DNA of 29,906 nt from IMG/VR virus record IMGVR_UViG_3300044711_000137, positions 1-29,906 of that record. The stretch is one strand, 5' to 3'. The DNA is from a virus (taxonomy: Duplodnaviria; Caudoviricetes). The notes under the pieces are model-generated. The model ran no database searches and was not told the DNA's origin. It worked only from the letters and a program-made list of their open reading frames with translations. Below are positions 13,257 to 29,906 of the stretch, piece after piece. The stretch's first letter is position 1. Each line of letters starts with the position of its first letter. A program made the translations under genes and the position numbers.

Positions 13257-13659
13257 CGGCGTGCTCGCGGACGGGTGTTTCGACCCGCTGCACATCGGGC
13301 ATGTGCGCTATATGCTCGCGGCGAAAGCCCTGTGCGCCCGTGACGTCATCATCGACGATTTCGAGCGGTTCCTGGTGCGCGTGGCGCCGGACGCGGCGAT
13401 TCGGGCGAAAGGACGCGACCCGTTCCAGACGGCGGGGGAGCGCGCCGATTGTCTGACCGCGCTCGTGCCGTGTCAGTGCTACTTCACCGACACGCTGGCG
13501 CACGCCGTGACCGAGTTGAAGCCGCGCTTACTCGTGAAAGGGCTCGACTGGTACGGCAAACTGCCGCTCGACGTGATTGACGCGTGTCTCTCGACCGGCA
13601 CGCACATCGTGCATACCATGACGCAGGAGCGGACCAGCACGGAGCGGCTCACCGCATGA
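13225..13659 (+). CDS. HIGH-motif cytidylyl/adenylyltransferase (TagD/RfaE-II-like)
   Basis: GCFDPLHIGHVRY, KGRDPF...ER, LVKGLDW and TSTERL. Confidence 0.85.
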   Translation: MNGLNASSRNSGVLADGCFDPLHIGHVRYMLAAKALCARDVIIDDFERFLVRVAPDAAIRAKGRDPFQTAGERADCLTALVPCQCYFTDTLAHAVTELKPRLLVKGLDWYGKLPLDVIDACLSTGTHIVHTMTQERTSTERLTA

Positions 13660-14366: not shown

Positions 14367-15145
14367 TCGATGCCGTGTTGAGCTATCACCTGAATCCGTT
14401 GACCTGTGGCGTGGCGAAATTCAATCACGCGCTCGCGCGACGGCTGAAGGTGCCGCTGGAGTCATTGGAGAAGCATCCCGTCGCCCATCCGTTGATTTCG
14501 ATCAAGACGTCGGAATGTTACAACGAGTGGCCGGCGGTCACGGAGTGGTATCGCACGTATGATCTGTTTTTCCATGACCATCCGCGCGGCCTCTGTGCCT
14601 TCGGCATTGTGCAGAAGGCGCGACGGGTCTATGCCGCGAACGCGCTGATCGCCGAGGCTATCCGACCGCACAACCCCGACGTGATCACGGCGTTCTGTCC
14701 CTCGACGGTCGAGGGCAACCCAACCCGTGGCGCGTATCGCGTGCTCACCTTCGGCATGGCGCACAAGTTGGTACTCCCGCATTTCGTGCAATTGAAAGAA
14801 GACCTCGACCGCGATCATCCCGACTACACCCTGAGTCTCTCAACGGCGGTGCATGAAGGCTCGCCGTGGGACGAGGCGCTCACTCAGTCCGTGGAGGCGA
14901 TGCGTGGCATCTTCGGTGATCACTTACGTGTCCTCGGTTTTCTCGCGGATGATGCACTGGCGAAAGAACTCCAGGACTGCGACGCCGTGGCGGCGTTTTT
15001 CGTCCCGGCGTTCCGCGCCAACAACACCAGTGCGTGGGCCGCACTGGCCGCAGGTAAATTCCTCTACACGAATCTGGATCAGCACTCACCCGCACTAAAT
15101 CCTGAGCAATATTCCTGGGACGCGCTGCTGCAGGTGCTCGCGTGA
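14363..15145 (+). CDS. putative GT-B fold glycosyltransferase (GT4-like, divergent)
   Basis: TCGVAKFNHAL N-terminus, VLTFGMAHK, LGFLADDAL, AWAALAAG and terminal YSWDALL. Confidence 0.6.
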   Translation: MIDAVLSYHLNPLTCGVAKFNHALARRLKVPLESLEKHPVAHPLISIKTSECYNEWPAVTEWYRTYDLFFHDHPRGLCAFGIVQKARRVYAANALIAEAIRPHNPDVITAFCPSTVEGNPTRGAYRVLTFGMAHKLVLPHFVQLKEDLDRDHPDYTLSLSTAVHEGSPWDEALTQSVEAMRGIFGDHLRVLGFLADDALAKELQDCDAVAAFFVPAFRANNTSAWAALAAGKFLYTNLDQHSPALNPEQYSWDALLQVLA

Positions 15146-16089
15146 GAGAATTCTTCCTTGGCGCAAGGCGGATCGCGGACGACGCACCCTGCTATGTGAT
15201 CGCGGAGCTGGGGCACAACCATGGCGGGAGTGTCGACACCGCCGTCCAGATGATTAAAGCCGCCGCACGGTGTGGGGCGCACGCCGTGAAGTTCCAGAAG
15301 CGGGAGAACGCGACGCTCTACAGCGCCGACGTGCTCGCGCAGCCCTACGACCACGAGAATAGTTTCGGTCGCACCTATGGCGAGCATCGCGCCGCGCTCG
15401 AACTCTCGGCGCAGCACTACGTCACCTGTCGCACCGTCGCGAAAACCTTCAAGCTCGATTGTTTCGCGACCGCCTTCGATGAAGCCTCCGCCGATTTCCT
15501 GGTGCGGCTGGATGTGCCCGCGATCAAGATCGCCTCGGGCGGGCTGACCGACCACGCGCTGCTGCGGCATGTCGCGGGCCTCGGCGTCCCGGTGATCCTC
15601 TCCACTGGCGGCGGGACGTTCGAGGATGTCGATGCCGCGGTCAACGTGCTCGAGGCGGGCCGCGCGCCGTATGCACTCTTGCACTGCACGGCCGCGTATC
15701 CGGTCCTGAACTACGCGGAGTTGAACCTGCTGGCGATTGTCGCGATGCGCGCGCGGTATCCCGAGACGGTCATCGGGTGGAGCGGCCATGACTCCGGAAT
15801 CGCCATGAGTCTGGTGGCCTACGCGTACGGCGCGCGTATTCTCGAAAAACATTTCACGTTGAATCGTGCGATGAAGGGCACCGACCATGCGTTCAGCCTG
15901 GAACCCGCAGGACTTCGAAAGCTGGTTCGCGATCTTGAACGGGCGCACCTGGCCAATGGTGATGGCTGCAAGAGACTCTATGACTCAGAACGAAAACCCC
16001 TCAGTAAAATGCGACGCGTCGCCACCGCCGACGGCCCCCGCGTCACCGGCGTCCTCCAGGCCGACGATTCAGTTCTTCACCCCTCGTGA
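15142..16089 (+). CDS. neuB: N-acetylneuraminate/nonulosonate synthase family, without C-terminal AFP-like domain
   Basis: VIAELGHNHGG, AVKFQKR, IKIASG, PVILSTG, LLHCTAAYP, GWSGH and EKHFTL...GTDHAFSLEP. Confidence 0.93.
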   Translation: MREFFLGARRIADDAPCYVIAELGHNHGGSVDTAVQMIKAAARCGAHAVKFQKRENATLYSADVLAQPYDHENSFGRTYGEHRAALELSAQHYVTCRTVAKTFKLDCFATAFDEASADFLVRLDVPAIKIASGGLTDHALLRHVAGLGVPVILSTGGGTFEDVDAAVNVLEAGRAPYALLHCTAAYPVLNYAELNLLAIVAMRARYPETVIGWSGHDSGIAMSLVAYAYGARILEKHFTLNRAMKGTDHAFSLEPAGLRKLVRDLERAHLANGDGCKRLYDSERKPLSKMRRVATADGPRVTGVLQADDSVLHPS

Positions 16090-16405
16090 ACTCGGCCCGA
16101 AAGACTGGGGCACGGAACTGCTCGTCGCCGAGACGGATCAGTACATCGGCAAGGTGCTGACGATGAAAGCCGGGCGCGGCGGGCCGTTGCAGTATCACCA
16201 GCGGAAGGATGAAACCTTCTACGTGGTCAGCGGGCACGCGCGCCTGCGCTTCCACGACGCCAACAAAAACATCATCGTGCAACTGCTCGAGCCGGGGATG
16301 GCGGTGCATGTCCCGCCGGGGGCCGTGCATCAGGTGGAGGCAATCACCGATTGTGTGCTGTTCGAAACCTCGACGCCGGTCTTTGAGGATCGGGTCGCCG
16401 TATGA
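15980..16405 (+). CDS. cupin, mannose-6-phosphate-isomerase (type II)-like; start uncertain
   Basis: KDWG-E, LQYHQRKDETFYVVSG, VPPGAVHQV and ETSTP. Confidence 0.8.
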   Translation: MTQNENPSVKCDASPPPTAPASPASSRPTIQFFTPRELGPKDWGTELLVAETDQYIGKVLTMKAGRGGPLQYHQRKDETFYVVSGHARLRFHDANKNIIVQLLEPGMAVHVPPGAVHQVEAITDCVLFETSTPVFEDRVAV

Positions 16406-17160
16406 GGATGGTCGCGTTGATTCCGGCGCGGGCGGGATCGAAGCGCATCCCGGGGAAGAATACGCGGTTGCTCGCGGGCGAGCCGTTGCTCGCGTGGACG
16501 ATTCGCGCGGCCTACGCGAGCGGCGTCTTCGATGAGGTGATTGTCTCGTCCGAAGATAGCGCGATTGGGCAGATCGCGGAGCGCGCGGCGGCCTACTGGC
16601 TCCCGCGTCCGGCCGCGCTCGCCACCGACGAGAGTCCCGACATCGCCTGGGTGCGCGATGCGTTCAAGATGCAGATCGTCGAACGAGCGCAGGCGTTCGC
16701 GATCCTGCGTCCCACGTCGCCCTTTCGCACCGCCGAGACGATCAAGCGCGCGTTCAGGCAATTCACGCACGACGAAGCGCATTCGTTGCGCGCGATGCAA
16801 CCGGTGAAGGAACATCCGGGCAAGATGTGGCAGGTCGCGGGCGCGGGGTATCCGGCCGTGCCGCTCATTGGCGCCGGATGGCCGACGCCGACTGGCGCGA
16901 CATTCCGTGCTTCTGGTGACACGCCGTGGCACTCGCAGCCGACACAAGCACTGCCGAAGGTCTACGTGCAGAACGCCTCGCTGGAAATGGCGTGGAGCTA
17001 CGTGATCCACGCGTTCGGCACGATCAGCGGGACGAAAATCGCGCCGTTCTTCACGGAAGGCTACGAAGGCTTCGATTTGAACACTGAAGACGACTGGGAC
17101 CAGGCCGAACGCCTCATCGCGGAAGGGAAAGTTGCGCGCCCAGCTCTGGCCGCTCTATAA
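16402..17160 (+). CDS. neuA: acylneuraminate cytidylyltransferase (CMP-nonulosonate synthetase)
   Basis: ALIPARAGSKRIPGKN, RPAALATD, LRPTSPFR, QNAS and DLNTEDDW. Confidence 0.93.
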   Translation: MRMVALIPARAGSKRIPGKNTRLLAGEPLLAWTIRAAYASGVFDEVIVSSEDSAIGQIAERAAAYWLPRPAALATDESPDIAWVRDAFKMQIVERAQAFAILRPTSPFRTAETIKRAFRQFTHDEAHSLRAMQPVKEHPGKMWQVAGAGYPAVPLIGAGWPTPTGATFRASGDTPWHSQPTQALPKVYVQNASLEMAWSYVIHAFGTISGTKIAPFFTEGYEGFDLNTEDDWDQAERLIAEGKVARPALAAL

Positions 17161-18112
17161 ACGGCTCCTGCAGCACTCGTCGGCGCCGATTCTGGTCGGG
17201 CCGTGGCGCGGCGAAGTCGGCTTTGAAGTCCTCTACTGGATTCCCTTCGTCAAACGCCTCGCCAAACGCCTCCAGATCGACCCGCAACGGCTGATTCCCG
17301 TCACGCGCGGCGGCGCGGGGCAGTGGTACGGCGGTGCGCCAGGATTAGAACTCTACGATCTGCGCTCGCCGCAGGAGGTGCGGGTCGAAAACCGCGTCCA
17401 GCACGCGAAATCCGCGATGCTGAAACAAATCTGCTGGACGGCGTTCGATCACGCCGTGATCCGCGACGCCGCGACACGCCTCAATCTCCGGCGCTACCTC
17501 GTCCTGCATCCGGCGTGGATGTTTGCGCGCCTGACGCCCTTTTTTGCCTCCGCGATGGGCCTGACGCAGCTCGAAGAGGAGGCGCTGTTCGATCCGCTGC
17601 CCGCGCCGCCGCTCCCCGAGGGCCTCACGCTGCCGGAGCGGTTTGTGGCCGTGCGCTTCTATCTCCGTCACACCTATCCCGGCCTCCCGCAACTCGTGCA
17701 GTTCGCGCAGGAGACGATCCGCACCATCGCCAATCACACGCCGGTCGTGCTCCTGAACAGCGGCGTGCATGTCGACGAGCATCAGGACGTGCAGTTGCCG
17801 CCCACCGCCAACGTCTCGCGGCTCACGGACCTCTGCGCGGTGACCCCGGCGAACAATCTCGCGGTGCAGAGCGCGGTCCTGGGCAAGGCGCTCGGCTTTG
17901 TCGGCACCTACGGCGGATTGTCCCAGCTCGCGTTGCGGCTCGGGAAGCCCTCGGTGAGTTACTACCACGAGTGGAGCGGCACCGCGATGGCGCACAAGCA
18001 TCTCGCCGACGCCATTGCGCTGCAAAGCCAGCTGCCGTGTCTGGTGCTCAAGGTGGGGGAGTTGCCGATGCTGCAAAGCGTGGCGCCGGTCGTCGAAGTC
18101 GTCGAAGCGTAG
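17132..18112 (+). CDS. hypothetical protein, candidate glycosyltransferase
   Basis: GPWRGEVGFEVLYWIP N-terminus; FVAVRFY and ALGFVGTYGGLSQLALRLGKPSV resemble the GT9-like C-terminal pattern; last gene of the sugar cassette. Confidence 0.5.
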   Translation: MRAQLWPLYKRLLQHSSAPILVGPWRGEVGFEVLYWIPFVKRLAKRLQIDPQRLIPVTRGGAGQWYGGAPGLELYDLRSPQEVRVENRVQHAKSAMLKQICWTAFDHAVIRDAATRLNLRRYLVLHPAWMFARLTPFFASAMGLTQLEEEALFDPLPAPPLPEGLTLPERFVAVRFYLRHTYPGLPQLVQFAQETIRTIANHTPVVLLNSGVHVDEHQDVQLPPTANVSRLTDLCAVTPANNLAVQSAVLGKALGFVGTYGGLSQLALRLGKPSVSYYHEWSGTAMAHKHLADAIALQSQLPCLVLKVGELPMLQSVAPVVEVVEA

Positions 18113-18410: not shown

Positions 18411-18983
18411 ATGGCAGACCTCGTCCTCAGTTCCGGGGCCATCTGCCGCCCGTTCCGTTCCCCGTGGGGAGCGTTTCCAACGCGCGGCATGGCCCTCTCG
18501 TCGGGTATCAGTTCCAACGCGATTCTCCTCGGGCGCGTCGTCGCGCTCGATGTCAACACCGACTCCAACGCGGGCCAGATCCTGCCGTCCAGCCAGACGG
18601 CCGGCGTCGTCATGTCGACGGCGATTGTCGGCATCGCCGCCGAAGCGGCGCAAGGGCCGGGCTCCACCAACACCCGCGGCACGGTCATCTCGGTCTGGGA
18701 AGCCAATCCCCTGATCGAATTCCGCGCCAACACGCAGGGCGCGAATCTCGGCTCCTCGCAGGTCGGGAAGATGAAAGCCCTGGTGTGGGATTCCACCCTC
18801 ACCATCCACAAAGTCGACCTCTCCAACTCGACGCTCATCAACGTGCGCGTGGTCGTCACGCAACTCATCGACAACGAAGGAGACAGCGGCGGTGCCGTGG
18901 CCTTCCGATTCCTCGCTCAGACCCCGCCGGCTGGTGATAGCACCGTCAGCCGCGGCGTCTTGGCCTTCTATGGAAGGGGCTAG
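18411..18983 (+). CDS. putative capsid decoration/minor head protein
   Basis: GGGAG RBS; beta-rich; immediately upstream of the major capsid gene. Confidence 0.65.
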   Translation: MADLVLSSGAICRPFRSPWGAFPTRGMALSSGISSNAILLGRVVALDVNTDSNAGQILPSSQTAGVVMSTAIVGIAAEAAQGPGSTNTRGTVISVWEANPLIEFRANTQGANLGSSQVGKMKALVWDSTLTIHKVDLSNSTLINVRVVVTQLIDNEGDSGGAVAFRFLAQTPPAGDSTVSRGVLAFYGRG

Positions 18984-18986
18984 TCC

Positions 18987-19907
18987 ATGGCTCAAGTCCG
19001 CGGCACCAACCCCGACCTCTACGACAATGTCGACAAGACGTTCTACGGGATCATGAAAGGGCAGCTCAAAGAACTGCCGAAGATCTACCCGAACGTCTAC
19101 AACATCAAAAGCTCGGACCGCAAGTTCGAGCGCGTCGTCACCTACGTCCCGTTCGGCGACACGGTGTCCAAGCCCGAGGGCGAACCCTTCGTGATGGACA
19201 CCCTGCGGCAGGGCAACACGAAAGACTTCACCCACACCGAAAACGGGTTGGGCTTCGAAGTCACGCAGACGGCGCTCGAAGACGACGCGGAAGGCTTGCT
19301 CAATCGCGCCGGCGAATGGCTCGCGTTTTCCGCCCGCTACGTCGAGGAAGGCCGCGCGGCGAATCCGTTCAACAACGGCTTCTCGACGGAAACCACCCCC
19401 GACGGCGTGTCGCTCTTCAACACGGCGCATCTGCTCAAAGGCGGCGGCACGGCGAAGAACCGGCCCTCGACCGACGCGGACCTGTCGGCGACCTCGTTGA
19501 CGCAGGCGCTCATCGACCTGCAGACCGACCAGAAGGATGAAGCGGGCCATCTGGCCTCGCCGATTCACGACTGGATTCTCTACATTCCGCCGCAGTTGGA
19601 ATTCCTGGCGGACCGCTTGATCAACTCGGTGGGCTTGCCCTCGAGCGCGGACAACGACCGCAACCCGATCAAGGCGCGGCGGCAGTGGACGATTGTCGTC
19701 AATCCGCGCCTGACCGATGCGGACGCCTGGTTCCTCGTCGCGGGGAGCAAGTCGCAGCATGGGCTGACGTTCTATCGGCGCGTGCCGATCAGCATGGAGC
19801 CGATGATGATCGATGCGCGCACCAACAACCGCATCTTCAAATGTCGGCATCGCTTCTCAGTCGGCGCCTGGACCTGGGTCGGAAGTTACGGGACTCAGGG
19901 GGCCTGA
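18987..19907 (+). CDS. major capsid protein (HK97 fold, Mu gpT-like family)
   Basis: SSDRKFE, KPEGE, EDD, DGVSLFNTAH, LYIPPQLEF-A-RL and NPRLTDADAWFL, ending YGTQGA. Confidence 0.88.
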   Translation: MAQVRGTNPDLYDNVDKTFYGIMKGQLKELPKIYPNVYNIKSSDRKFERVVTYVPFGDTVSKPEGEPFVMDTLRQGNTKDFTHTENGLGFEVTQTALEDDAEGLLNRAGEWLAFSARYVEEGRAANPFNNGFSTETTPDGVSLFNTAHLLKGGGTAKNRPSTDADLSATSLTQALIDLQTDQKDEAGHLASPIHDWILYIPPQLEFLADRLINSVGLPSSADNDRNPIKARRQWTIVVNPRLTDADAWFLVAGSKSQHGLTFYRRVPISMEPMMIDARTNNRIFKCRHRFSVGAWTWVGSYGTQGA

Positions 19908-20049: not shown

Positions 20050-20532
20050 ATGGGTATTACCCGCTTCAACGGCCCGCTCTACGGGGCGAAGGCCAATCTT
20101 TTCTCCTTCGGCCCGACCCGCGGCGACGCCAACGCCTCGACCACCCTCCTCGGCTCGATCGTCGTCCCGCCCTACGAAACCTGGTACATCACGGAATTCT
20201 TCGCGGCCAACGCGGGCGCGTCGTCCAACTCCTCGACGCCCAAGATCGTGCTGAAAGTCAAAGGCACCTCGACCAGCGTGTCGTATCCCGGCCCTGGCCC
20301 CGACCCGGCGTTTCCGACCGGCAATCCCGGCACTGTCGCGACCATCACCGGTCCGACCTCGACGGCGGGGTTCAATCAGGTGACCACGCCGACGGCGAGT
20401 GCCGGCGAATCCGAAGGCTATGCGGTGCCCGCGAACTCCACGATCCGCGTGGTGAGTTCGGGGACGATCTTCGGCCTCCAGTGCCGCGTCAACGGCTTCA
20501 TCCGGTTCCTCGATTCCACCCGGAACATCTGA
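20050..20532 (+). CDS. putative virion structural protein
   Basis: GAGG RBS; MGITRFNGP start typical of post-capsid genes; S/T/G-rich. Confidence 0.7.
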   Translation: MGITRFNGPLYGAKANLFSFGPTRGDANASTTLLGSIVVPPYETWYITEFFAANAGASSNSSTPKIVLKVKGTSTSVSYPGPGPDPAFPTGNPGTVATITGPTSTAGFNQVTTPTASAGESEGYAVPANSTIRVVSSGTIFGLQCRVNGFIRFLDSTRNI

Positions 20533-20535
20533 GCC

Positions 20536-20904
20536 ATGGGGAATATCGCGTCACGCTTCAAATGGGTCTTTGGCACCGCCGAAGCGGCGAATTCGCCCGG
20601 CCGCGGCGTGGCGTCGAACGTCAAAGGCTCGACCGGCGCCGGGGTCGCCTTCAATACCCATGGCTGGGGCGAGTCGTTCAGCTTCGTCTGTGAAGCCGAC
20701 GCCGCCGCCACCTGCAGCTATCAGATCCGCTCGGCGCGGACGTCCTCGGGGCCGTGGGCGGTGCTCTCCAGCGGCACGCTGAGTACGTCCGGGTCGACGC
20801 TGGTGCAACTGTCGGGGCCGCTCTTCTGGCTCTCGCCGCGGTGCAAGACGCTCAATTCGACCGCGAATCAGTTCGTGATCGAAATGTCGGCGGTCGAATC
20901 CTGA
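20536..20904 (+). CDS. putative virion structural protein
   Basis: Beta-rich, S/T-rich, tightly packed in the operon. Confidence 0.65.
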   Translation: MGNIASRFKWVFGTAEAANSPGRGVASNVKGSTGAGVAFNTHGWGESFSFVCEADAAATCSYQIRSARTSSGPWAVLSSGTLSTSGSTLVQLSGPLFWLSPRCKTLNSTANQFVIEMSAVES

Positions 20905-20914
20905 GGCGCCGCTG

Positions 20915-21298
20915 ATGGGGGCCTTTGATAGTGGGCTGGGGAATCCGCCCATCAATAGCACGGGGTTTCTCCCGGTCGCCGCGCCGTCGACCTCCACCCT
21001 GCTCGCCGAACTCGACTCGACGCAACTGGGGACGAAAGACTTCCGCGCCGGCCAGAGCCGCTTGTATCGCGTGAACTGGATCCTCGGCGCCGATACCAAC
21101 GCGACGTGGCAGTGTGAATCGGCCACCGACACGAGTCTGGGGTCCGGCGTGGAGATCTTCTTTCCGAAAACGCCGTCAGGGCAATCGGCGCAGTATGTGA
21201 CCTCGCACAGCCTGAGCCGGGACATGCGCTTGCGCGCACGCTTGTTCTCCACCGCGGTGAATGCCGCGGCCTACATCTCCGCGGAGCCGGTGACCTAG
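20915..21298 (+). CDS. putative virion structural protein
   Basis: GAGG RBS; beta-rich, S/T-rich. Confidence 0.65.
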   Translation: MGAFDSGLGNPPINSTGFLPVAAPSTSTLLAELDSTQLGTKDFRAGQSRLYRVNWILGADTNATWQCESATDTSLGSGVEIFFPKTPSGQSAQYVTSHSLSRDMRLRARLFSTAVNAAAYISAEPVT

Positions 21299-21807
21299 TG
21301 CCCCTCATCGCCACGTTTCACACGGCCTATTGGGAGCATTCCGACACCGTTACCGTCGCCGTGGGGCGGATGATCGGCCACTATCCCGCGTGGCAGACGG
21401 CCGCCGTCACCTTGGGCACGCTCTTCGGCGGCGTGCTGCCCTTCTGGGAACGCTTCTGGGACCGCGTGGCGTGGTGGTGGAAAGCCCAGCCTCGCTGCGC
21501 GCGGCTCGACCGCGAACAACGGCAGGTGCTGCTCAAGACGCTCGATGCCCTGGAACATCCCGCGTATCCGCTCGCACGCTTGTCGGTGAGGAAAACCGCG
21601 ACGACCTTGGGCTTCAACCGGCCGGAAGCGTGGAAAGAACTCTCGCGTGAGCTGAAAGGCTCGGCGTGTCATGCCGAGAATGCGTTCCGGCATCTGGAAG
21701 CCTGCCGCTTGGTGCGCGCGAATCTCGTCAGCAGCACGCTGACCAATCCCGAATGCAATCTCCTCGTCGAACTCGCCTATCAAGGCTTCGCGGCGAGGTC
21801 GACGTAA
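21298..21807 (+). CDS. hypothetical Trp-rich protein
   Basis: Exactly fills the gap between neighbours; hydrophobic segment followed by FWERFWDRVAWWW. Confidence 0.6.
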   Translation: MPLIATFHTAYWEHSDTVTVAVGRMIGHYPAWQTAAVTLGTLFGGVLPFWERFWDRVAWWWKAQPRCARLDREQRQVLLKTLDALEHPAYPLARLSVRKTATTLGFNRPEAWKELSRELKGSACHAENAFRHLEACRLVRANLVSSTLTNPECNLLVELAYQGFAARST

Positions 21808-23196
21808 ATGGCGGCCTTCTCGCACATCAGCGGCGCCGAACCCTCGACGATCACGTTCAAAGCGGCCACGGTCACGCAGACGCGCAACAGCTCCGTCATG
21901 CATCAGGAGCTGATCTCGCTCGCCGATCCGGAGTCGTCGCTCGCGATTAGTGCGGTGCTGAATGCCGCGCCGGCGTCGACGACCTTCGGTCTCGCGGTAC
22001 GCCGCGTCGGCGACAAAGCGGAGACCAGCGCCTGGGCCGGCGGGTCGGTCGTGCCGATGGGCGCGCACGTGCAGAACAATCTGTCGATTGTCGGCGACGA
22101 AACCATCGTCATGCCGAAAGCGGACATCAACGGCGTCTTGTGGGTCACGTTGAACAACGCGGCCACCAACGTCGTGCGTGATGAAGCGACGCAGGTGGAC
22201 GATGCCGTCTTCGTGCCGGCGGGCAATCGCGTGATGATGGCCGGCGCGACCTTTGACGATACCGCGCCCGACAGTGTCGATGAAGGCGACGGCGGCGCGT
22301 TGCGCATGTCGTCCAATCGCGCGCTCTACACGATCCTGCGCGATGCGGCGGGCAACGAACGCGGCGCGAACGTCACCGCCGCGAAACAACTCTCCGTCTG
22401 GGCGCAGAACTCCAGCGCGGCCGATCTGCTCGTGCAGGCTTCGGGCAACTCGACCGTCTTCCAGGGCTCGTCCGCCTGGCAGGTCCAGGTCACCAATCAG
22501 GCGCGGGTGACGAATTCCTCGGCGGCGGATTTTGTCGTCACCGTGTCGGGCAACTCGACCGTCGCGCCGCTCGCCGGCTCGACCTGGAACACCCGCCCGA
22601 TTCAGTCCTCTGCCGCCGATCTGCAAATGACCGCGACGCCGCTCGCGGGGTCGACGTGGAATGTCCGCGCGTTGAACTCCAGTGCCGCCGATTTGCAAGC
22701 GACCGTCACGCCCGCCGCGGGGTCGACGTGGACCGTGCGCGCGCTCAATTCCAGTGCCGCCGACCTGCTCGCCACCGTCACCCTCGGCACGAACCTGCAA
22801 TCGACGCTGGCGCCCTCCAGCAACTCGTCGGGCCTCATCGTGCGGCAGGTCGTCGACAACATCCTCACGACCGCCAGCACCAATACCTTCACCTCGACGT
22901 CGTTTACGATTCAATCCTCCGGCGCCGCGCTGCGCAGTTACGTCACGGCCTATTCCATTACCACCACCAATGCCGGCCCGACGAAGGTGGCGTTTTACTC
23001 CAGCGCGGTCATGCTGTGGCCCGTCGTGCTGGCGGCGGTCTCGAGCGCCGTGTCGGGCGTCAATCTCGCGGTGAGCGCCCCCGGGTATCTCTTTCGCACC
23101 ATCGGCGCGGCCGATGCCTTGACGCTCAACATTCACGGCGGCGGTGCCACGGCGGCCGGGTGGCACGTCGGCGTCTCGTATTTCCGGGCCCCCTAG
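21808..23196 (+). CDS. fibre-like virion protein with internal repeats
   Basis: A/S/T/V-rich; five (N/Q)SSAAD repeats. Confidence 0.75.
   Translation: MAAFSHISGAEPSTITFKAATVTQTRNSSVMHQELISLADPESSLAISAVLNAAPASTTFGLAVRRVGDKAETSAWAGGSVVPMGAHVQNNLSIVGDETIVMPKADINGVLWVTLNNAATNVVRDEATQVDDAVFVPAGNRVMMAGATFDDTAPDSVDEGDGGALRMSSNRALYTILRDAAGNERGANVTAAKQLSVWAQNSSAADLLVQASGNSTVFQGSSAWQVQVTNQARVTNSSAADFVVTVSGNSTVAPLAGSTWNTRPIQSSAADLQMTATPLAGSTWNVRALNSSAADLQATVTPAAGSTWTVRALNSSAADLLATVTLGTNLQSTLAPSSNSSGLIVRQVVDNILTTASTNTFTSTSFTIQSSGAALRSYVTAYSITTTNAGPTKVAFYSSAVMLWPVVLAAVSSAVSGVNLAVSAPGYLFRTIGAADALTLNIHGGGATAAGWHVGVSYFRAP
22408..22779 (+). repeat. coding tandem repeats (two units 105 nt apart, then 3 x 72 nt)
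   Basis: NSSAAD..V..SGNSTV at 22408 and 22513; xP(L/A)AGSTWxxRxx(N/Q)SSAADL at 22564, 22636 and 22708. Confidence 0.85.
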
Positions 23197-23198
23197 CG

Positions 23199-23588
23199 AT
23201 GGCGAACCTCGTCGTGACTCCGGCGCTCCGCTCGACCACTGCGCTCCGCTTTCCGGCGGCGGGCCTCACGATTCCCGCCAACGCGAACAGCGCGTCGATT
23301 GCCTTCACGATGCCCGTCGATGCGGAACGCGCGTCCACGGCGGCCCGGCTGGACTTCGGCATCGACGTGTCGACCGACGGCGGCGCGACGTGGAAACCGT
23401 ACTTGCAAGCCAGTTGGACCGGCGGCTCCGGGGGCACCGGGAAAAACAGTACGGTCCTGAATCCCCCGCCGGGCGCCACGGTGGGCGGCGACTTCTTCGC
23501 GGCGTTTGCGGGGCAGAAAGCCAGTGTGAGTGTGAAGCTCGCGACCCCGATGACCTTGGGCGGCACGATCAGTTCGACGCGGATCTAA
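23199..23588 (+). CDS. putative virion structural protein
   Basis: ATG 23199; contains the Asp-box STDGGATW. Confidence 0.7.
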   Translation: MANLVVTPALRSTTALRFPAAGLTIPANANSASIAFTMPVDAERASTAARLDFGIDVSTDGGATWKPYLQASWTGGSGGTGKNSTVLNPPPGATVGGDFFAAFAGQKASVSVKLATPMTLGGTISSTRI

Positions 23589-23591
23589 GCC

Positions 23592-24299
23592 ATGGCGACC
23601 AACCTCAACCAGTTCATCTCCGGCACGGTGCTCAACGCGAGCTCGCTGAACGTGCTGTTTTCGTCGGCGGTGAGCTCGGGCAGTTTGATCGTCGTGCATG
23701 TCGGGCAGTTCAACGGGGCCGCGCGGACGTTCTCCGACATTGTCGACAACGTCAACGCGAACGCCTACACCGTGGGCTGTAACTCGACGATGACGAGCGA
23801 CACGGCGGCGCACGCCTTCATTGCCTACAAGGCGGGGATTTCCTCGGGCGGCGCGGCGAGTACCTATCGCGTCAGCGTGAATCTGGGCGGCTCGGGCAAC
23901 GGCGGGCTCAGTGCGGGGGCGTTCGAGTATACCGGGGGGCCGTGGACCGTCGGCTCCACCAAGAGCGCGAATGGCACGTCCTCGTCGCCCGCCCCGGGCG
24001 CCACGACGGCGTCGTCGACCCCCGTGCTCTTCGTGATGAGCGCGATTCAGAACTCCACGGCGACGTTCAATTCCACGATCAATACCGGGGCATGGCGCGT
24101 GACGATCGACCCGACCAATGCCAACCAGGTGATCGCCATTGCGGACAGTACGAATTCGTCGCTGACCCAGAATCCGACGTTCGGGCTGAGTGCCTCGACG
24201 CGCTGGCTGGCGAACTCGATGATCTTCATGGGCCTCGGCAGTGGCGGCGCGGCGGCGCGCCCGTTTGTCGACGGCTTCTCGCTGACGGGAGTCGTGTAG
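23592..24299 (+). CDS. putative virion structural protein (beta-sandwich)
   Basis: S/T/G/N-rich beta-strand pattern. Confidence 0.7.
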   Translation: MATNLNQFISGTVLNASSLNVLFSSAVSSGSLIVVHVGQFNGAARTFSDIVDNVNANAYTVGCNSTMTSDTAAHAFIAYKAGISSGGAASTYRVSVNLGGSGNGGLSAGAFEYTGGPWTVGSTKSANGTSSSPAPGATTASSTPVLFVMSAIQNSTATFNSTINTGAWRVTIDPTNANQVIAIADSTNSSLTQNPTFGLSASTRWLANSMIFMGLGSGGAAARPFVDGFSLTGVV

Positions 24300-25075
24300 T
24301 GCAGTTCAGCTCGCTCTACACCGCGCGCCTCGACGAAGAACTCGGCACCGACGATGCCGCGATCCTCTTCACCACGGCGCGGCGCAAAGCGGCGGTCAAC
24401 ATGGGCGTGCGGGAATTCGCCGAACAGACCGAATGCTTCCTGCGCGAATCGACGGTGACGCTCACCGGCGGGACGGCCGAGTACGACCTGAACTCGTCGC
24501 TGGTGATCCCCGGCGAAGACTTCGTCCGCCTTGCCGTGCAGCAGGTGGAATTCCGCTACATCGACGCCTCGTCGAACGTGACGGTCCTGACCGGCGACGA
24601 CTTGCCCCGGCGGGACATCGACTGGCTGAATCGCTATCAAGCGGGCTGGCAGACCTCCACCGTCGCGTCGAGCGTGGCCCAGATGCCGGAGTTCTACTAC
24701 GAACGGTTCGCGGCGGGCGGGCGGTTTCTCGGCTTCACGCCGACCCCGTCCACCGGGTCGAGCGCGAGTGCGACCGCGATTGTGCCCTATGTGGCGCGGC
24801 CCCCGGTCTTGACCTCCGACACGAGCGAACCGTATCAGGTGGGCGCGCTGGTGCGGCGCGATCTGCGCGACTACCACCAGGCGGCGGTGCATTACGCGGC
24901 GCACCAACTCGAAAAACTGCGGCGCGACGACCAGGCAAGCGACCGGCAGTTGCAGAAGTTTCTCGGCTACGTGACGCGGTGGCTGCAGAGTCACCGGGTG
25001 AAGAACGGGACGGCGATCACGATGGCGCGCAACTACTTCAAGACGCAGTCGAAAGTGCAGGACCCGAGAACCTAG
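24299..25075 (+). CDS. putative head-tail adaptor
   Basis: TAGTG overlap; helical N-terminus (AAVNMGVREF), GTAEYDL, PEFYY, FTPTP and YHQAAVHYAA. Confidence 0.7.
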   Translation: MQFSSLYTARLDEELGTDDAAILFTTARRKAAVNMGVREFAEQTECFLRESTVTLTGGTAEYDLNSSLVIPGEDFVRLAVQQVEFRYIDASSNVTVLTGDDLPRRDIDWLNRYQAGWQTSTVASSVAQMPEFYYERFAAGGRFLGFTPTPSTGSSASATAIVPYVARPPVLTSDTSEPYQVGALVRRDLRDYHQAAVHYAAHQLEKLRRDDQASDRQLQKFLGYVTRWLQSHRVKNGTAITMARNYFKTQSKVQDPRT

Positions 25076-25076
25076 A

Positions 25077-26756
25077 ATGCCGACGACCATCCGGAACCCG
25101 ATTCCCGACTGGCTGCAACCGCAGAACGCGAGTGTGCTCGACCCGGCATGGGTGACGGCGCTCCGCACGATTGCCTCGGTGATTGGCGCCAACGATCCGC
25201 AGGCGCAGGTGACGGCGCTCATGGCGCCGATGAACGTGGGCGAGGTGGAGAGTCCGATCGCGAAAGTCGTCACCGCCATTGCCGCCAAGGTCAAGAGCCT
25301 CCGCGCGTCGCCGCAGGACGTCGCGGCGCTCGCGGAAAAACTGAAGCTGGCGACCGGCGGCAAGCCGAAGGCCGTCGCGGAGGTCGTCGCGGATCGCACG
25401 CACGCCCTGGGCGGCTTTTCCGTCAATCCGCGCACGGGCGAGATCCCACAAGAAGGCGTCATGGTCGGACGGTATCCGAACCAGAGCCAGCGCACGGCCA
25501 ATATGCCGCCGCAGGATCTGACACCGGCCGCCGTGACGAAGTTCCTGAAAGCGAACGCCGACGTGCTCGCCAAAGAGGAGAGGCGCCCGACGCATGTCGG
25601 GGGCTGGATGAAGAAGGACGAGGCGGGGACGCCGCTCGAAGCGTTCCTCGACGTCTCCGAGAAGCACGACACGGTGCGGTCGGCGACCAAGCGCGGCGAA
25701 TTACAGACGGATCCCGCCATGGTCCGCAACGCGAATGACACCTGGCCGAACGGACAAGAACAAGTCTATGACGTGGCCTCCGGGACGGAGTCTCCGGTCG
25801 GCAATCTGGCCGATTTTCTCCGGGGCGTCACGCGCGACAGCGACGGGCGGACCTTCCAGCAGCGCCTGGACGAGATGTTCACGGCCGGCGAGCCGGTCAT
25901 GGCGGACAAGCAGGACTGGTGGGGGCTGCCGGGGGGTCCCTACGAGGACGTCTACGGCCCGGACCGGCTGCGACAGAACGCCGGGTTCCTCGCGGCCACC
26001 TCGCCGGAGACGAAACCGATCGAGAACGCGCGCGTGGCAAGCGAATACACGCGCCGCGCGATCAAGGGGGAGCCGATCATCCAGCCGGACTACCGCATCC
26101 CCGACGACGCCGTCGCGTTCACGCCGGGGAAGCAGATGAAATACGAGCAGTCGCGGATCGCGAACCTCGAGAAAGCGGCGGCCGGCGACCTCGATGCGAT
26201 GCGGATGGACAAGATCAACGACATGGCGCACGCCAACATCGGCGATGACGTCTCGGTGATCGATCGCCGGTTCGCGAAAGTCGCCGAAGACCCCAAGGCC
26301 GGGATCTACGCAGGCGCCGAACCGAACCTCGTCGAGCCGGCGATGGACTACCACCCCGAGGGCGGGCCTGGGGCGTATGCGTGGTTCAGCAATGCGGTCA
26401 TTGACGGCGCGAAGCGCAATGGCATGACGGTCAAGAAATATAGCGCGACCGTCTGGGAAGGGATCGGCGAGACGATTCGCACGACCGGCGAACTGTTCGG
26501 CGTACCGCACCCGGCGAGCGCGATTCCGGAAGCCGAGGGCGGATTCAACGACATCTTGCCGAAGCTGGTCGCGGAAAAAGCCAGCAAACTCGGGATCACC
26601 GTGCCGGAGATGGTGCAGCGCCTCCGCAGTGGAGACGCCAACCTCCTCGCGGCGGTGCTTAGCACTCCTGCGGGTTTACAGGCGTATCGGGCGTGGGCGG
26701 CTCGGACGGGGGCGCCTCAGCCAGAATCGCCGCCAGCGGGCGGGCTGGACGATTGA
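25077..26756 (+). CDS. multi-domain putative internal/ejected protein
   Basis: Low-complexity ends flank two globular domains: GGFSV...GGW...FLDVS...QVYD and LAATSP...N...KI...NI.D..VIDR...Y...ATVW. Confidence 0.7.
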   Translation: MPTTIRNPIPDWLQPQNASVLDPAWVTALRTIASVIGANDPQAQVTALMAPMNVGEVESPIAKVVTAIAAKVKSLRASPQDVAALAEKLKLATGGKPKAVAEVVADRTHALGGFSVNPRTGEIPQEGVMVGRYPNQSQRTANMPPQDLTPAAVTKFLKANADVLAKEERRPTHVGGWMKKDEAGTPLEAFLDVSEKHDTVRSATKRGELQTDPAMVRNANDTWPNGQEQVYDVASGTESPVGNLADFLRGVTRDSDGRTFQQRLDEMFTAGEPVMADKQDWWGLPGGPYEDVYGPDRLRQNAGFLAATSPETKPIENARVASEYTRRAIKGEPIIQPDYRIPDDAVAFTPGKQMKYEQSRIANLEKAAAGDLDAMRMDKINDMAHANIGDDVSVIDRRFAKVAEDPKAGIYAGAEPNLVEPAMDYHPEGGPGAYAWFSNAVIDGAKRNGMTVKKYSATVWEGIGETIRTTGELFGVPHPASAIPEAEGGFNDILPKLVAEKASKLGITVPEMVQRLRSGDANLLAAVLSTPAGLQAYRAWAARTGAPQPESPPAGGLDD

Positions 26757-26895
26757 GCGAGGCCAGAAACCGATGGTAGGGCAGCAGCTTCCAGATCGCC
26801 TGGGCGGTCTGGTCATCCAGCGTCTCGCCGAAGAAGCGGCAGCGTTGTTTGACGAATTCGATCGTCTCGCTGGGGAGATGCGGCCAGTGTTTCAC
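26659..26895 (-). CDS. small antisense protein, probably leaderless
   Basis: TATACT (26907-26902) lies 6 nt before GTG; natural-looking N-terminal 45 aa occupying the + strand gap. Confidence 0.5.
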   Translation of the reverse strand: MKHWPHLPSETIEFVKQRCRFFGETLDDQTAQAIWKLLPYHRFLASLNRPARPLAAILAEAPPSEPPTPDTPVNPQEC

Positions 26896-26909
26896 AGACG
26901 GAGTATACC

Positions 26910-27074
26910 GTGATTACCGTGCGCTTTGCTTGCGGCCACACCGTCACCCTCGACGCGAACGTCTCGTCCGCGCCGGTCTGTCCGACCTGCGGCGAACGGC
27001 GGGTGAGTCGGGTGGACGCGCCCGCGCCGCGCTTCTCTGGGAGCTGCAGTGGTCCCTTGGTGACAAATCCATGA
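26910..27074 (+). CDS. 54-aa zinc-ribbon protein, FmdB-like (not in ORF track)
   Basis: GGAG RBS, GTG start; CGH...CPTCG...RV.AP..F.GS; ATGA overlap with the next gene. Confidence 0.7.
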   Translation: MITVRFACGHTVTLDANVSSAPVCPTCGERRVSRVDAPAPRFSGSCSGPLVTNP

Positions 27075-27589
27075 TGAATGATGCCCTCGGCGTCTCGTTC
27101 TCCCCGACCGGTAACGGCGGCCCCAACGCCCAGAAACCGACCCCGGTCCAGCAGGCGATTCAGACGTTGAGTCTCCGTGTGCCGTCCCATGTGGGCGCGA
27201 GCGCGTTCACGCCGCAAGCCTTGCTGCCCTCGCCGACGGAAAGCGGCGGCAGTGTCGGCGGCGCGCCGGACATGCTCCTGGAAGCCATCAAGCGGCTGCT
27301 GTTCGGGCCGGCGCAGCAAGGCACGCAGCCGGTGCCCGGCGGCGGGCCGGTGCTGCCCCCCGACGGGCAGGGGCCGATCCTCGGCACGCAGCCGGTCCCC
27401 GGTGGGCGGACCTTCGCGCCCGGGCCGCGCCCCGGGGTGGTCGTGAATCCAGGGGCAGGCCCCGGAGAGCCGCGCGCCCCGGCGCCGCCGCGCACCCTCG
27501 ACAACGCGCCCGCCGCGCAGCCGAGTGAAACCGCGATGCCGTCGGCGACCTTTCCCGTCCGCCCCCCGCGTCCGGATAACCGCGTATGA
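27071..27589 (+). CDS. Pro/Gly-rich protein
   Basis: ATGA overlaps at both ends; GTQPVPGG duplicated at 27320 and 27383. Confidence 0.7.
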   Translation: MMNDALGVSFSPTGNGGPNAQKPTPVQQAIQTLSLRVPSHVGASAFTPQALLPSPTESGGSVGGAPDMLLEAIKRLLFGPAQQGTQPVPGGGPVLPPDGQGPILGTQPVPGGRTFAPGPRPGVVVNPGAGPGEPRAPAPPRTLDNAPAAQPSETAMPSATFPVRPPRPDNRV

Positions 27590-29499
27590 GCAACCAGGCG
27601 AAGACGCAGAAAGGCACCCAGACGCGGGCCTACCAGCTCGTGCCGGTGGAAGACCCCTCCGGCGGGGTCGACCTGCGCACCTCGCCCACGTTGCTCCCCG
27701 CGAACCGCGCACGCTCGCTCATCAACTTCAGCCTGGAAGAACCCGGCGCGCTCGTCGTGCGCCCCGGCTATGTCCGCTTCTCGACCACGAGTCTCGGCGC
27801 CTCGCGCATTCAGGGCGGCGCGCGGATCTATCTCAATACGGCACTGCCGGCGCCGGCCTCCACGACGTTCACGCTCGTCGGCTGGAACGGCAGCGTGTAC
27901 ACCCTGTCGGATGCCGGGGTCTGGGGGACCCCGGGTCTGTCGGGGTTGTCCTCGACGAGTGAACTGCACTTTGTCACCGACCGCGATCTGGTCGCCGTCT
28001 TCGATGGCTCCACGACGCCGTGGAAGTCGACCAACGGCTCGAGCTGGACGCGGCTCGGGATCGCGGCGGGTCTCGTCTCCTCGACGGCCTCGAGCAAAGC
28101 GGGCGGGAGTCTGAGCACGTCGGAGTTCGAATTCGGCTACACCTACAAGGATCGCGACTTGGCGGTGGAGTCGAACGGCTCGACCGCGCTCTCGACCCTC
28201 AGCTTGGCCTCAACCGGCGCGGCGGAACTGCAGATCCCCAACAGCACCGATCCGCAGGTCGACGCGATTGTCGTCTACGCGCGCAACAAGACCTCCGGTG
28301 AAAGCGTGCGGCGCAAAGCCTCGAGCTTCGCCATGCAGGGCGGCGCGCATTCGACGGTGACGATCACGAGCTCGAACTGGACGACCAACGACGAGGAACC
28401 GACCGACCACGACGCGCCGCCGATTCTGAGCTTCGGCGTGGTGTGGAAGAACCGCTGGTGGGCGCGCTCGGGCACGCGCACCAACCGGTTGCACTTCACG
28501 CAACTCTTCCAGCCGCAAAGCTGGCCGGCGCTCTTCTACATCGACATCCCGTTCGAACGCGGCGACAGCATTCAAGCCTTGGTGCCGCTCGGCGATGCGC
28601 TGCTCATCTTCGGCAACACCAAAGTCTTCATCATCATCGGCACCTCGTCGCTCGATTTCACGGTGCGCCCGAGTATCGGCAGTCTCGACGGCGCGTTCGG
28701 CCCGCGCGCGGTGGCGATCATCGAAAACGGGGTCGTCCATGCCTCGGCCTCCGGCATCTACATCTTCGATGGCACCTCCGACAAGTTGTTGTCGTTCGAC
28801 CTCGACCCGGCGTGGCGCGATCTGACCTCGGCCTCGCAAGCGGATCTGGCGCGGCTCGCGATGGTCGCGCATCAGACGCGGAAGGAACTCCGGGTCAGTG
28901 TGCCGCGCTTGTTCCCGACCGGCGCCGAGGGGGAATGGGTGCTCGACCTGAACCGCACGCGCGTCAAGGGGGAAACCGCGTGGACCGCGACCGACCGCCA
29001 GATTGGCGGCTACATTCTGTGGGACGGCCCGGAGACCCTCGCCGCGAATCGCGGGCGCCTCTTCTCGTGGCACTCGACCGCGGCGCTCGTCTTCGAGGAA
29101 GCGATCGGCACGACCGCGAACAGTTCGAACATGACGGCCTCGTATGAAGGCCCGGGGCTGACCCTGGGCGCGTATCGCGGGCGCTGGGTGGACCTGCGCG
29201 GCGAGTACGAACCGCACGGCGGCGCCGCGTCGATTGAACCGGTGGTCGACAACGTCTCGCAGGGGATTCAAGCGTTGACCATCGGCAGTGGCCTGGCGAC
29301 CTACGACAGCACGGCGACCTATGACGCGGCGGTCTATGCGGGGGCAGGCCGGCGGCAGTGGGCGAAGACCCTCCCGCTCAGTGCCGACGGCCGCACGTTC
29401 GTCCTGAAGTTGAATTACAGCGGCCTCGAGCCGTTCCGGCAGTTCAGTTATCACGTCGGCCTGGTGCCGGAAAGCCGCAGCCGACTGTTCTCGGAGTAA
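27586..29499 (+). CDS. putative tail nozzle/stabilisation protein (P22 gp10/T7 gp12-like beta-propeller)
   Basis: GGVD...P...N...GAL..RPGY N-terminus, WKNRWW...NRLHF, GDSIQAL, LLIF and GIYIFDG; 637 aa. Confidence 0.7.
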   Translation: MSNQAKTQKGTQTRAYQLVPVEDPSGGVDLRTSPTLLPANRARSLINFSLEEPGALVVRPGYVRFSTTSLGASRIQGGARIYLNTALPAPASTTFTLVGWNGSVYTLSDAGVWGTPGLSGLSSTSELHFVTDRDLVAVFDGSTTPWKSTNGSSWTRLGIAAGLVSSTASSKAGGSLSTSEFEFGYTYKDRDLAVESNGSTALSTLSLASTGAAELQIPNSTDPQVDAIVVYARNKTSGESVRRKASSFAMQGGAHSTVTITSSNWTTNDEEPTDHDAPPILSFGVVWKNRWWARSGTRTNRLHFTQLFQPQSWPALFYIDIPFERGDSIQALVPLGDALLIFGNTKVFIIIGTSSLDFTVRPSIGSLDGAFGPRAVAIIENGVVHASASGIYIFDGTSDKLLSFDLDPAWRDLTSASQADLARLAMVAHQTRKELRVSVPRLFPTGAEGEWVLDLNRTRVKGETAWTATDRQIGGYILWDGPETLAANRGRLFSWHSTAALVFEEAIGTTANSSNMTASYEGPGLTLGAYRGRWVDLRGEYEPHGGAASIEPVVDNVSQGIQALTIGSGLATYDSTATYDAAVYAGAGRRQWAKTLPLSADGRTFVLKLNYSGLEPFRQFSYHVGLVPESRSRLFSE

Positions 29500-29502
29500 C
29501 GG

Positions 29503-29906
29503 ATGCCTGCATCGTTTCCCTCCGCCGCGAAGACCTTCACCAGCCGCGCCGCCGGGCAGGTGATTGCCTCGGCGCACCTCAACGACCTGCAGGACGAAGT
29601 CAACGCGGTGGAAACCGACCTCGTGGCCGGCAAGGTCGGCGGCGTCGCCGCGGCGCGCTTGACGGCGCAGACCTTCACCGGGATCCAGCAGGTCCCCGGC
29701 GGGGCGGTGGCCGCCGTCGGCCTCGGCGTCGGCGCGGCGAATGTCGGCCTCTATGCCTCGAGCACGAGCACGCTGGAAGTGGCCGCCGCGGGCGTGAAGG
29801 CGATCGGCATCACAGCCACGGCGATTAGTTCGCCGGTCCAGCCGCGGTGTTCCGTGTTCCACAGTGTCGCGCAAACCGTCCAGACGAGCAGCGCCACGGC
29901 GCTGAC
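29503..29906 (+). CDS. tail fibre/spike N-terminus (3'-truncated)
   Basis: GGAG RBS; MPASFPSAAKTF...IASAHLNDLQDEVNAVETDL, a typical fibre anchor motif; frame open to the window end. Confidence 0.7.
   Translation, partial: MPASFPSAAKTFTSRAAGQVIASAHLNDLQDEVNAVETDLVAGKVGGVAAARLTAQTFTGIQQVPGGAVAAVGLGVGAANVGLYASSTSTLEVAAAGVKAIGITATAISSPVQPRCSVFHSVAQTVQTSSATAL

What the first reader, a model, noticed from the sequence alone, without database searches (positions are those of the whole stretch)
20050..29499. Virion proteins are loaded with N-x-S/T sequons and S-[S/T] pairs, while the major capsid protein has none
Manual counts of N-x(not P)-S/T per Asn: nozzle 27586 12/21; fibre 21808 10/28; protein 23592 6/20; adaptor 24299 3/6; protein 20050 3/10; protein 20915 2/5; major capsid 0/18. 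NST/NSS dominate, and DST, GST, AST and QSS also recur, so the selected motif could be S-[S/T] (O-linked) rather than the Asn sequon. Inference: these are acceptor sites co-evolved with the cassette, either cytoplasmic N-glycosylation (HMW1C/NGT-like logic) or flagellin-type O-linked nonulosonylation.
Basis: partly seen in the sequence, partly recalled or inferred. Interest (0 to 1): 0.88.

Follow-up and report, generated by a model that had tools for sequence, protein, structure and literature searches.

The report
Ser-Thr tags track phage sugar enzymes
The predicted outer coat and tail proteins of this uncultured short-tailed phage carry about twice too many Ser-Thr and Ser-Ser pairs, a bias seen only in relatives that also encode two predicted sugar-transferring enzymes, so the pairs likely mark where the phage attaches sugars to its own particle (untested chemically).

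Summary
In nine predicted outer virion proteins, S-[S/T] occurs 106 times against 56 expected. T-S and T-T are not enriched, and sequons without a middle Ser are not enriched (18 vs 20). Nineteen other proteins show nothing.

Among 31 near-complete relatives, 19 carry a GT9-like GT-B gene (17132) plus a weakly Cst-II/Maf-like gene just beyond the window, and 12 carry neither. S-[S/T] counts separate the two groups without overlap: nozzle 12-26 vs 4-9, adaptor 5-13 vs 0-3, cement 7-14 vs 0-1. Capsid, portal and ejection proteins do not differ. Nozzle N-x-S/T is about 2x enriched in both groups.

Best reading: phage-encoded cytoplasmic O-glycosylation at a directional Ser-[Thr/Ser] motif, probably using a CMP-nonulosonate from NeuB/NeuA. 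Confidence 0.6.

Caveats: there is only one phylogenetic split, no chemistry, and siphoviruses with distant copies of both enzymes lack the bias. This scan noted similar virion motifs (other sequences, other phages) before.

The parts
13225..13659 (+). HldE-domain-II-like nucleotidyltransferase (predicted to make an NDP-sugar)
   Evidence: PF01467; TIGR02199 E 4.7e-14, below cut-off; in 18 of 19 GT+ and 0 of 12 GT- genomes
13656..14366 (+). SAM methyltransferase of the cassette (a second one lies at 10334-10939)
   Evidence: PF13489
14363..15145 (+). GT4-like GT-B glycosyltransferase (GT14363)
   Evidence: Atlas structure matches to GT4, TM about 0.77; 18 of 19 GT+, 0 of 12 GT-
15142..16089 (+). 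NeuB-family nonulosonate synthase
   Evidence: PF03102 E 1.8e-71; 17 of 19 GT+, 0 of 12 GT-
15887..16405 (+). cupin (open frame; true start not fixed)
   Evidence: PF07883
16402..17160 (+). NeuA/PseF-like CMP-nonulosonate synthetase
   Evidence: PF02348; PseF E 1.5e-30; 17 of 19 GT+, 0 of 12 GT-
17132..18112 (+). GT9-like GT-B glycosyltransferase (GT17132), core cassette gene
18411..18983 (+). probable capsid cement/decoration protein, 10 S-[S/T] (3.7 expected)
   Evidence: sits just before the MCP gene; homologues hit phrog_122 head decoration and phrog_1731 only weakly; 7-14 vs 0-1 pairs in GT+ vs GT-
18987..19907 (+). major capsid protein; no sequon, no S-[S/T] excess (4 vs 2.4)
   Evidence: PF25209
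20050..20532 (+). small presumed virion protein, S-[S/T] 9 vs 4.0
   Evidence: role inferred from position
20536..20904 (+). small presumed virion protein, S-[S/T] 6 vs 4.8 (not significant alone)
20915..21298 (+). small presumed virion protein, S-[S/T] 5 vs 3.5; family 68 vs 31
21808..23196 (+). fibre-like repeat protein, S-[S/T] 24 vs 12.4; four N-S-S repeats and one Q-S-S repeat
23196..23588 (+). small presumed virion protein, S-[S/T] 6 vs 2.4
23592..24299 (+). presumed virion beta-protein, S-[S/T] 16 vs 9.0
24299..25075 (+). SU10-type adaptor, S-[S/T] 8 vs 3.1
   Evidence: PF24175
27586..29499 (+). podovirus tail nozzle/hub, S-[S/T] 22 vs 13.9, N-x-S/T 12 vs 4.0
   Evidence: model pLDDT 82; Foldseek hits to P22 gp10 and the tail complexes of SU10, T7 and Pa223
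29503..29906 (+). start of a post-nozzle fibre gene, cut by the window end. In the same phage's longer contig (L237) it is followed by a small gene and then the Cst-II/Maf-like gene F11 (L237:13040-13930, 1.1 kb past the nozzle)
   Evidence: L237 is identical to the window from the nozzle start to the window end

Best explanation
The outer virion proteins of this podophage carry a directional Ser-[Thr/Ser] motif (Asn preferred but not required before it) that likely serves as the acceptor signal for a phage-encoded cytoplasmic O-glycosylation system, whose core is predicted to be the GT9-like GT17132 and the Cst-II/Maf-like F11 gene just beyond the window. Shown: the motif bias, its restriction to cement, adaptor, nozzle and fibre-type proteins, its perfect co-occurrence with the two genes, and extra conservation of the first Ser. 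Inferred: during late infection NeuB and NeuA make a CMP-nonulosonate, and the HldE-II-like enzyme makes a second NDP-sugar. GT17132 and F11 would then add sugars to the Ser/Thr hydroxyls of newly made structural proteins, with GT14363 and the methyltransferases extending or capping them. The result would be a dense, probably anionic glycan coat on the cement and tail, with capsid, portal and ejection proteins left bare. Which residue of the pair is modified is open.
For: S-[S/T] 106 vs 56.4 in nine outer proteins; T-S and T-T not enriched; 22 vs 24.6 in 19 other proteins. Same 19 of 31 near-complete genomes carry GT17132 and F11. In a gene-content screen of 5 GT+ vs 7 GT- whole genomes, only these two families are in all GT+ and no GT-. 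Non-overlapping counts: nozzle 12-26 vs 4-9, adaptor 5-13 vs 0-3, cement 7-14 vs 0-1; MCP, portal and ejection protein do not differ. 41 F11+ vs 20 F11- nozzles: 12-26 vs 3-9. First Ser retained 0.65 vs 0.36 for lone Ser in GT+ pairs, 0.36 vs 0.34 in GT-. The bias is strongest in the coding frame (1.88 vs 0.6-1.3 where counts allow) and uses both Ser codon blocks. G037 lacked GT17132 (74% complete) but had a high count, and proved to carry F11. GT17132 has a GT9-type fold that includes the protein O-heptosyltransferase TibC among its hits. The F11 profile's best PDB hits are Cst-II sialyltransferases, 7 of 8 hits at E 0.036-0.17, and it aligns to PF01973-positive proteins at hhalign 73%. GT17132+F11 co-fold: weak support, score 0.41 vs best control 0.01, one of three runs 0.00; at 0.60 or under, 18 of 157 solved complexes and 2 of 215 mismatches passed.
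Against: GT+ versus GT- is a single split in the nozzle tree, so this is one evolutionary contrast; MCP and portal trees do not force more. Siphoviruses with distant GT17132 and F11 homologues show no S-T bias (S-T 0.95, S-S 0.82; 7 cassette MCPs 31/27 and 21/29). Several lineage-specific fibres of GT+ G026 are not enriched (17/19.1, 11/12.2). G026 keeps the motif without NeuB, NeuA, GT14363 or the nucleotidyltransferase, so the sugar need not be a phage-made nonulosonate. The F11 fold call is weak: no Pfam hit in 14 members, 1 weak CST-I hit in 101 distant relatives. The window nozzle keeps an unexplained N-[not S]-[S/T] excess (10 vs 3.0). Surface exposure was not computed; the first Ser is in coil in 17 of 22 sites vs 29 of 47 other Ser, a modest difference.
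Confidence: 0.6

Rival explanations
1. Lineage effect: the S-[S/T] bias arose once in the GT+ clade for structural or host-related reasons (ST-turns, host change, a host enzyme), and the phage transferases act on something else such as the host surface (superinfection exclusion) or DNA.
For: One phylogenetic split only. Siphoviruses carry both enzyme families without the bias. G015 has apparently host-like genes at its contig end (identity recalled, not tested), which would fit a temperate lifestyle where surface conversion is common (my knowledge).
Against: Homologous folds in GT- phages do without the pairs. The bias is order-specific (S-T 2.3-2.4x, T-S 0.8-1.0x), confined to outer proteins, and comes with extra Ser conservation only in GT+. 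The cassette sits among the late structural genes, not in a lysogeny module.
Confidence: 0.2
2. The pairs are acceptors for a non-sugar or host-supplied modification (phospho-glycerol, phosphonate, methyl, or a host cytoplasmic O-glycosyltransferase), with the phage genes contributing only part of the chemistry.
For: The cassette holds a cytidylyl/adenylyltransferase-like gene and two methyltransferases. F11's fold call is weak. G026 lacks all donor-making genes.
Against: The only two genes that track the motif perfectly both look like glycosyltransferases.
Confidence: 0.12
3. Cytoplasmic N-glycosylation of Asn sequons (HMW1C/NGT logic), perhaps restricted to N-S-[S/T], alone or alongside O-glycosylation.
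For: N-S-[S/T] is 5-7x enriched and GT+-specific, still 21 vs 6.5 when pairs are kept glued. Asn of non-Ser sequons is better conserved in GT+ nozzles (0.60 vs 0.40; GT- 0.46 vs 0.40).
Against: 85 of 106 pairs lack the Asn and are still 1.6x enriched. Nozzle sequons are about 2x in GT- too. One fibre repeat has Gln for Asn while S-S is kept. No GT41 domain in 4 complete relatives.
Confidence: 0.08

Closest known systems
Mycobacteriophage virion glycosylation (Freeman et al. 2023, Cell Host Microbe, PMID 37329881; not held, seen only as citing passages in PMC12619734, PMC11256854, PMC10955285)
   Same: Phage-encoded glycosyltransferases proposed to decorate the phage's own particle
   Different: There the glycans are reported on capsid and tail-tube subunits (C-termini). 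Here the major capsid lacks the motif and many internal sites of cement, adaptor, nozzle and fibres carry it. This phage also encodes nonulosonate synthesis (NeuB/NeuA), and its host is probably Acidobacteriota.
Maf flagellin nonulosonyl O-transferases and Cst-II (GT42) (passages of 10.1101/2022.03.25.485807 and 10.1101/2020.06.03.131540)
   Same: Soluble cytoplasmic enzymes using CMP-nonulosonate on Ser/Thr; F11 has weak profile similarity to Cst-II and to PF01973-type proteins; NeuA and NeuB are present
   Different: F11 is a roughly 290-aa protein with no direct PF01973 hit; the acceptors would be virion proteins; the words 'consensus', 'sequon' and 'motif' do not occur in the 2020 Maf preprint's main text
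Bacterial autotransporter heptosyltransferases TibC/Aah (PMC4358343, passages)
HMW1C/NGT cytoplasmic N-glycosyltransferases (GT41; search listing and abstracts)
   Same: Cytoplasmic glycosylation at many short motifs in adhesin-like proteins
   Different: No GT41 found here; the cassette-linked motif is S-[S/T], not N-x-S/T

Membership tests
HMW1C/NGT N-glycosylation | GT41/HMW1C-type enzyme encoded | tested here: not met
   PF13844 absent from the window's proteins and from 4 complete relatives, control rang in 2 of 14. The PF18071 search was uninformative. About 8 kb of this phage's longer contig was not seen.
HMW1C/NGT N-glycosylation | N-x-S/T enriched for any x, linked to the enzyme | tested here: not met
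   N-[not P,S]-[S/T] 18 vs 20.3; nozzle 1.66x in F11+ vs 2.06x in F11-
Maf-type nonulosonyl O-transferase | PF01973/DUF115 GT42-like domain | tested here: inconclusive
   No direct Pfam hit; hhalign 73%, E 3e-5 to PF01973-positive proteins; Cst-II best PDB hits at E 0.036-0.17
Maf-type nonulosonyl O-transferase | CMP-nonulosonate supply (NeuB + NeuA) | tested here: met
   17 of 19 GT+ genomes
Maf-type nonulosonyl O-transferase | Flagellin acceptor | tested here: not met
   No flagellin among 33 window proteins; the motif lies in virion proteins
Maf-type nonulosonyl O-transferase | Nonulosonate O-linked to Ser/Thr | not testable with these tools
   needs mass spectrometry
BAHT (TibC/Aah) | WaaC-like GT-B catalytic domain | tested here: met
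BAHT (TibC/Aah) | N-terminal beta-barrel and four-Cys iron finger | tested here: not met
   The model begins with a helix; no Cys among invariant or near-invariant columns of A2
BAHT (TibC/Aah) | ADP-heptose donor | tested here: inconclusive
   HldE-II-like gene scores below the equivalog cut-off and is absent from G026
Mycobacteriophage-type virion glycosylation | Phage-encoded glycosyltransferases | tested here: met
Mycobacteriophage-type virion glycosylation | Glycans demonstrated on virion subunits | not testable with these tools
   uncultured phage; no proteomics available

The most novel reading that the evidence does not exclude
A family of podophages, probably of Acidobacteriota, has evolved a true O-glycosylation sequon, Ser-[Thr/Ser]. 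It is read by a two-enzyme phage machine (GT9-like plus Cst-II-like, possibly one complex) that coats cement and tail proteins at dozens of sites with a sialic-acid-like sugar the phage makes itself, leaving the major capsid bare.
Probability: 0.3. Interest if true: 0.88.

Novelty: new variant of a known kind. Interest (0 to 1): 0.74.

Why it matters
Virion glycosylation in phages is documented, in the papers I could see, only for mycobacteriophages. A multi-site, motif-directed system with phage-made nonulosonate in a widespread phage family would show that phages reshape their structural proteins to carry a glycan coat. It would also supply small, soluble, cytoplasmic O-glycosyltransferases with a two-residue tag for glycoengineering. 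The natural GT+/GT- pair and the minimal genome G026 make the idea directly testable by co-expression. F11 belongs to a large unannotated family (4125 clusters at 50% identity).

Tried and rejected
1. Asn sequon as the cassette-linked signal: rejected.

2. DNA-level cause such as a codon-pair or TCNWC motif: rejected. The excess is in frame 0 of outer GT+ genes only (9.4 vs 1.1-1.6 per kb), and first-Ser codon use equals the same context in inner genes (0.76 vs 0.76).

3. Simple S/T richness: rejected by composition shuffles and by S-T vs T-S asymmetry.

4. A G-S-P motif in siphoviruses carrying the same two enzyme families: seen but also present in relatives without them, so not supported.

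5. Independent contrasts: a rebuilt alignment and three collections added no second GT transition.

6. Direct family names for F11, GT17132 and GT14363 by Pfam or PDB sequence search: none or weak. The first hhalign of F11 to PF01973-type proteins failed (1.7%) and passed only with the wider alignment.

7. Cultured relatives: none for GT17132; one weak F11 hit and two weak nozzle hits.

8. The count for L234 was taken in the wrong frame and is not used.

9. Literature: nine searches listed no paper on an S-[S/T] virion motif or phage NeuB-linked virion glycosylation. I saw listings and abstract starts only, the library lacks most subscription journals, and no supplements were read.
Full report
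WHAT THE WINDOW IS. The window is 63% of a tailed phage genome. It runs terminase, portal, a sugar cassette, a probable cement gene, major capsid, small and fibre-like genes, SU10-type adaptor and nozzle. The nozzle model (pLDDT 82) matches podovirus tail hubs and nozzles of P22, SU10, T7 and Pa223. Relatives are 41-49 kb genomes, many with direct terminal repeats. The only two nozzle matches in GTDB genomes are contigs of Acidobacteriota MAGs, one of them Vicinamibacterales. This suggests, but does not prove, the host. No cultured close relative exists in the phage collection.

THE OBSERVATION. All seven N-x-S/T counts reproduce. Only the nozzle is clearly above its shuffle (12 vs 4.0), and the capsid's zero has P=0.074. 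I pooled nine predicted outer proteins, chosen. N-x-S/T is 39 vs 23.3, but this splits into N-S-[S/T] 21 vs 2.9 and all other sequons 18 vs 20.3. S-[S/T] is 106 vs 56.4, and the 85 pairs without Asn are still above 53.2. Order matters: S-T 60 vs 26.3, S-S 46 vs 30.3, T-S 25 vs 26.6, T-T 14 vs 22.7. Nineteen other proteins give 22 vs 24.6. The signal is therefore a directional Ser-[Thr/Ser] pair. Asn is preferred before it (21 vs 6.5 when pairs are kept glued) but not needed. One fibre repeat has Gln in place of Asn and keeps S-S. The bias is at protein level: it is specific to the coding frame and has ordinary codon context.

THE NATURAL CONTROL. Of 31 relatives at least 90% complete, the same 19 carry GT17132 and F11, and 12 carry neither. 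GT14363 and the nucleotidyltransferase are in 18, NeuB and NeuA in 17, and none are in the 12. In an unbiased screen of 5 GT+ and 7 GT- whole genomes, only GT17132 and F11 were in all GT+ and no GT-. S-[S/T] counts per protein do not overlap: nozzle 12-26 (n=19) vs 4-9 (n=12), adaptor 5-13 (19) vs 0-3 (11), cement 7-14 (18) vs 0-1 (12). MCP (0-4 vs 2-4), portal and an ejection-type protein do not differ. In shared outer families, S-T is the top dipeptide in GT+ (609 vs 269) and flat in GT- (1.01x). Of 105 distinct nozzles, 41 had F11 nearby, 20 had none within at least 6 kb, and 44 could not be scored. The scored ones give 12-26 vs 3-9, while N-x-S/T is 2.04x vs 1.94x. In the cement alignment the GT+ proteins carry extra S-S/S-T-rich loops that GT- homologues lack. 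At matched divergence the first Ser is kept in 0.65 of GT+ comparisons against 0.36 for lone Ser; in GT- it is 0.36 vs 0.34. The second position swaps between Thr and Ser. The complete genome G026 keeps the motif (nozzle 18 vs 9) with only GT17132, F11 and one methyltransferase.

RESULTS AGAINST. GT+ and GT- differ by a single split in the nozzle tree, and MCP and portal trees do not force more than one change. Group p-values therefore overstate the evidence: it is one contrast, repeated over three proteins. HK97-like siphoviruses carry distant homologues of both enzymes yet show no S-T bias. Some lineage-specific fibres in GT+ genomes are unbiased. The window's nozzle retains a non-Ser sequon excess (10 vs 3.0) that is shared with GT- nozzles and probably fold-related. 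However, those Asn are better conserved in GT+ (0.60 vs 0.46), so a minor N-linked role is not excluded. Surface exposure could not be computed; 17 of 22 first Ser lie in coil against 29 of 47 other Ser. Co-folding GT17132 with F11 gave only weak support (0.41 vs best control 0.01; runs 0.00, 0.46, 0.41; partner pLDDT at least 78).

MECHANISM. Shown: the motif, its restriction to outer proteins, its coupling to two genes, and purifying selection on the Ser. Inferred: the two genes are glycosyltransferases that act in the cytoplasm on structural proteins. The donors would be a CMP-nonulosonate (NeuB, NeuA) for F11 and an NDP-sugar, perhaps a heptose, for GT17132, with GT14363 and the methyltransferases as optional extenders. 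G026 would borrow host donors. A strict Ser first and an exchangeable Thr/Ser second fits either Ser as the acceptor (TibC modifies Ser only; PMC4358343 passage) or the second residue. A possible purpose, which is speculation, is a hydrated anionic coat that limits sticking to soil minerals or host glycans, or shields against proteases and grazers. Confidence 0.6. Rivals: lineage effect 0.2, non-sugar or host modification 0.12, N-linked 0.08.

COMPARISON AND NOVELTY. It works like mycobacteriophage virion glycosylation (seen only through citing passages), combined with Maf and BAHT logic. It is not a member of the NGT or BAHT families by tested features, and Maf membership is inconclusive. My nine literature searches listed nothing on such a motif. 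This scan's earlier notes report other Ser/Thr motifs in outer proteins of unrelated phages with sugar cassettes. These are unchecked AI notes on other DNA that I did not test; look-ups for this genome, its relatives and GT17132 returned nothing. Verdict: the bias is real, the N-linked reading is mostly wrong, and the O-linked reading is well supported by comparative genomics but chemically unproven. New variant of a known kind, interest 0.74.

Noticed in passing
L177-L195 (e.g. L180:7413-11654): HK97-like siphoviruses carry a different sugar cassette between a collagen-like gene and the neck genes: a PF01973/MptE-like protein, an F11 homologue, a distant GT17132 homologue and FkbM-type methyltransferases. 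G/S-S-P strings recur in their neck and tube proteins but also occur in relatives without the two enzymes.
   Followed up: partly
window 11246-11830 (true start later): GroES/Cpn10-like gene between portal and scaffold, conserved in both GT+ and GT- relatives
   Followed up: no
window 21808-23196: Fibre-like protein with five roughly 24-35-residue repeats; the family was found only in GT+ loci (14 vs 0)
   Followed up: partly
G017 (L229:660-1295, minus strand): A second, divergent F11 paralogue near the portal
   Followed up: no
G005, G006, G009 (L054, L056, L028): The sugar cassette is relocated away from the capsid gene yet kept intact, while F11 stays behind the nozzle
   Followed up: partly
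G015 (L217:1429-3249): The record ends in apparently host-like genes (a translation-GTPase-like ORF, identity recalled, not tested) next to a cassette lacking NeuB/NeuA; possibly an integrated copy
   Followed up: no
window 25077-26756: A 559-aa gene of no known family between adaptor and nozzle, absent from most relatives, with no S-[S/T] bias
   Followed up: no
P0121-P0270: F11 belongs to a very large unannotated family (4125 clusters at E<=0.001); a cultured Microcystis phage has a weak homologue, annotated as a methyltransferase, just before its terminase
   Followed up: partly
window 18987-19907 family: N-x-S/T is depleted in GT+ major capsid proteins (15 vs 46 expected; GT- 13 vs 21)
   Followed up: no
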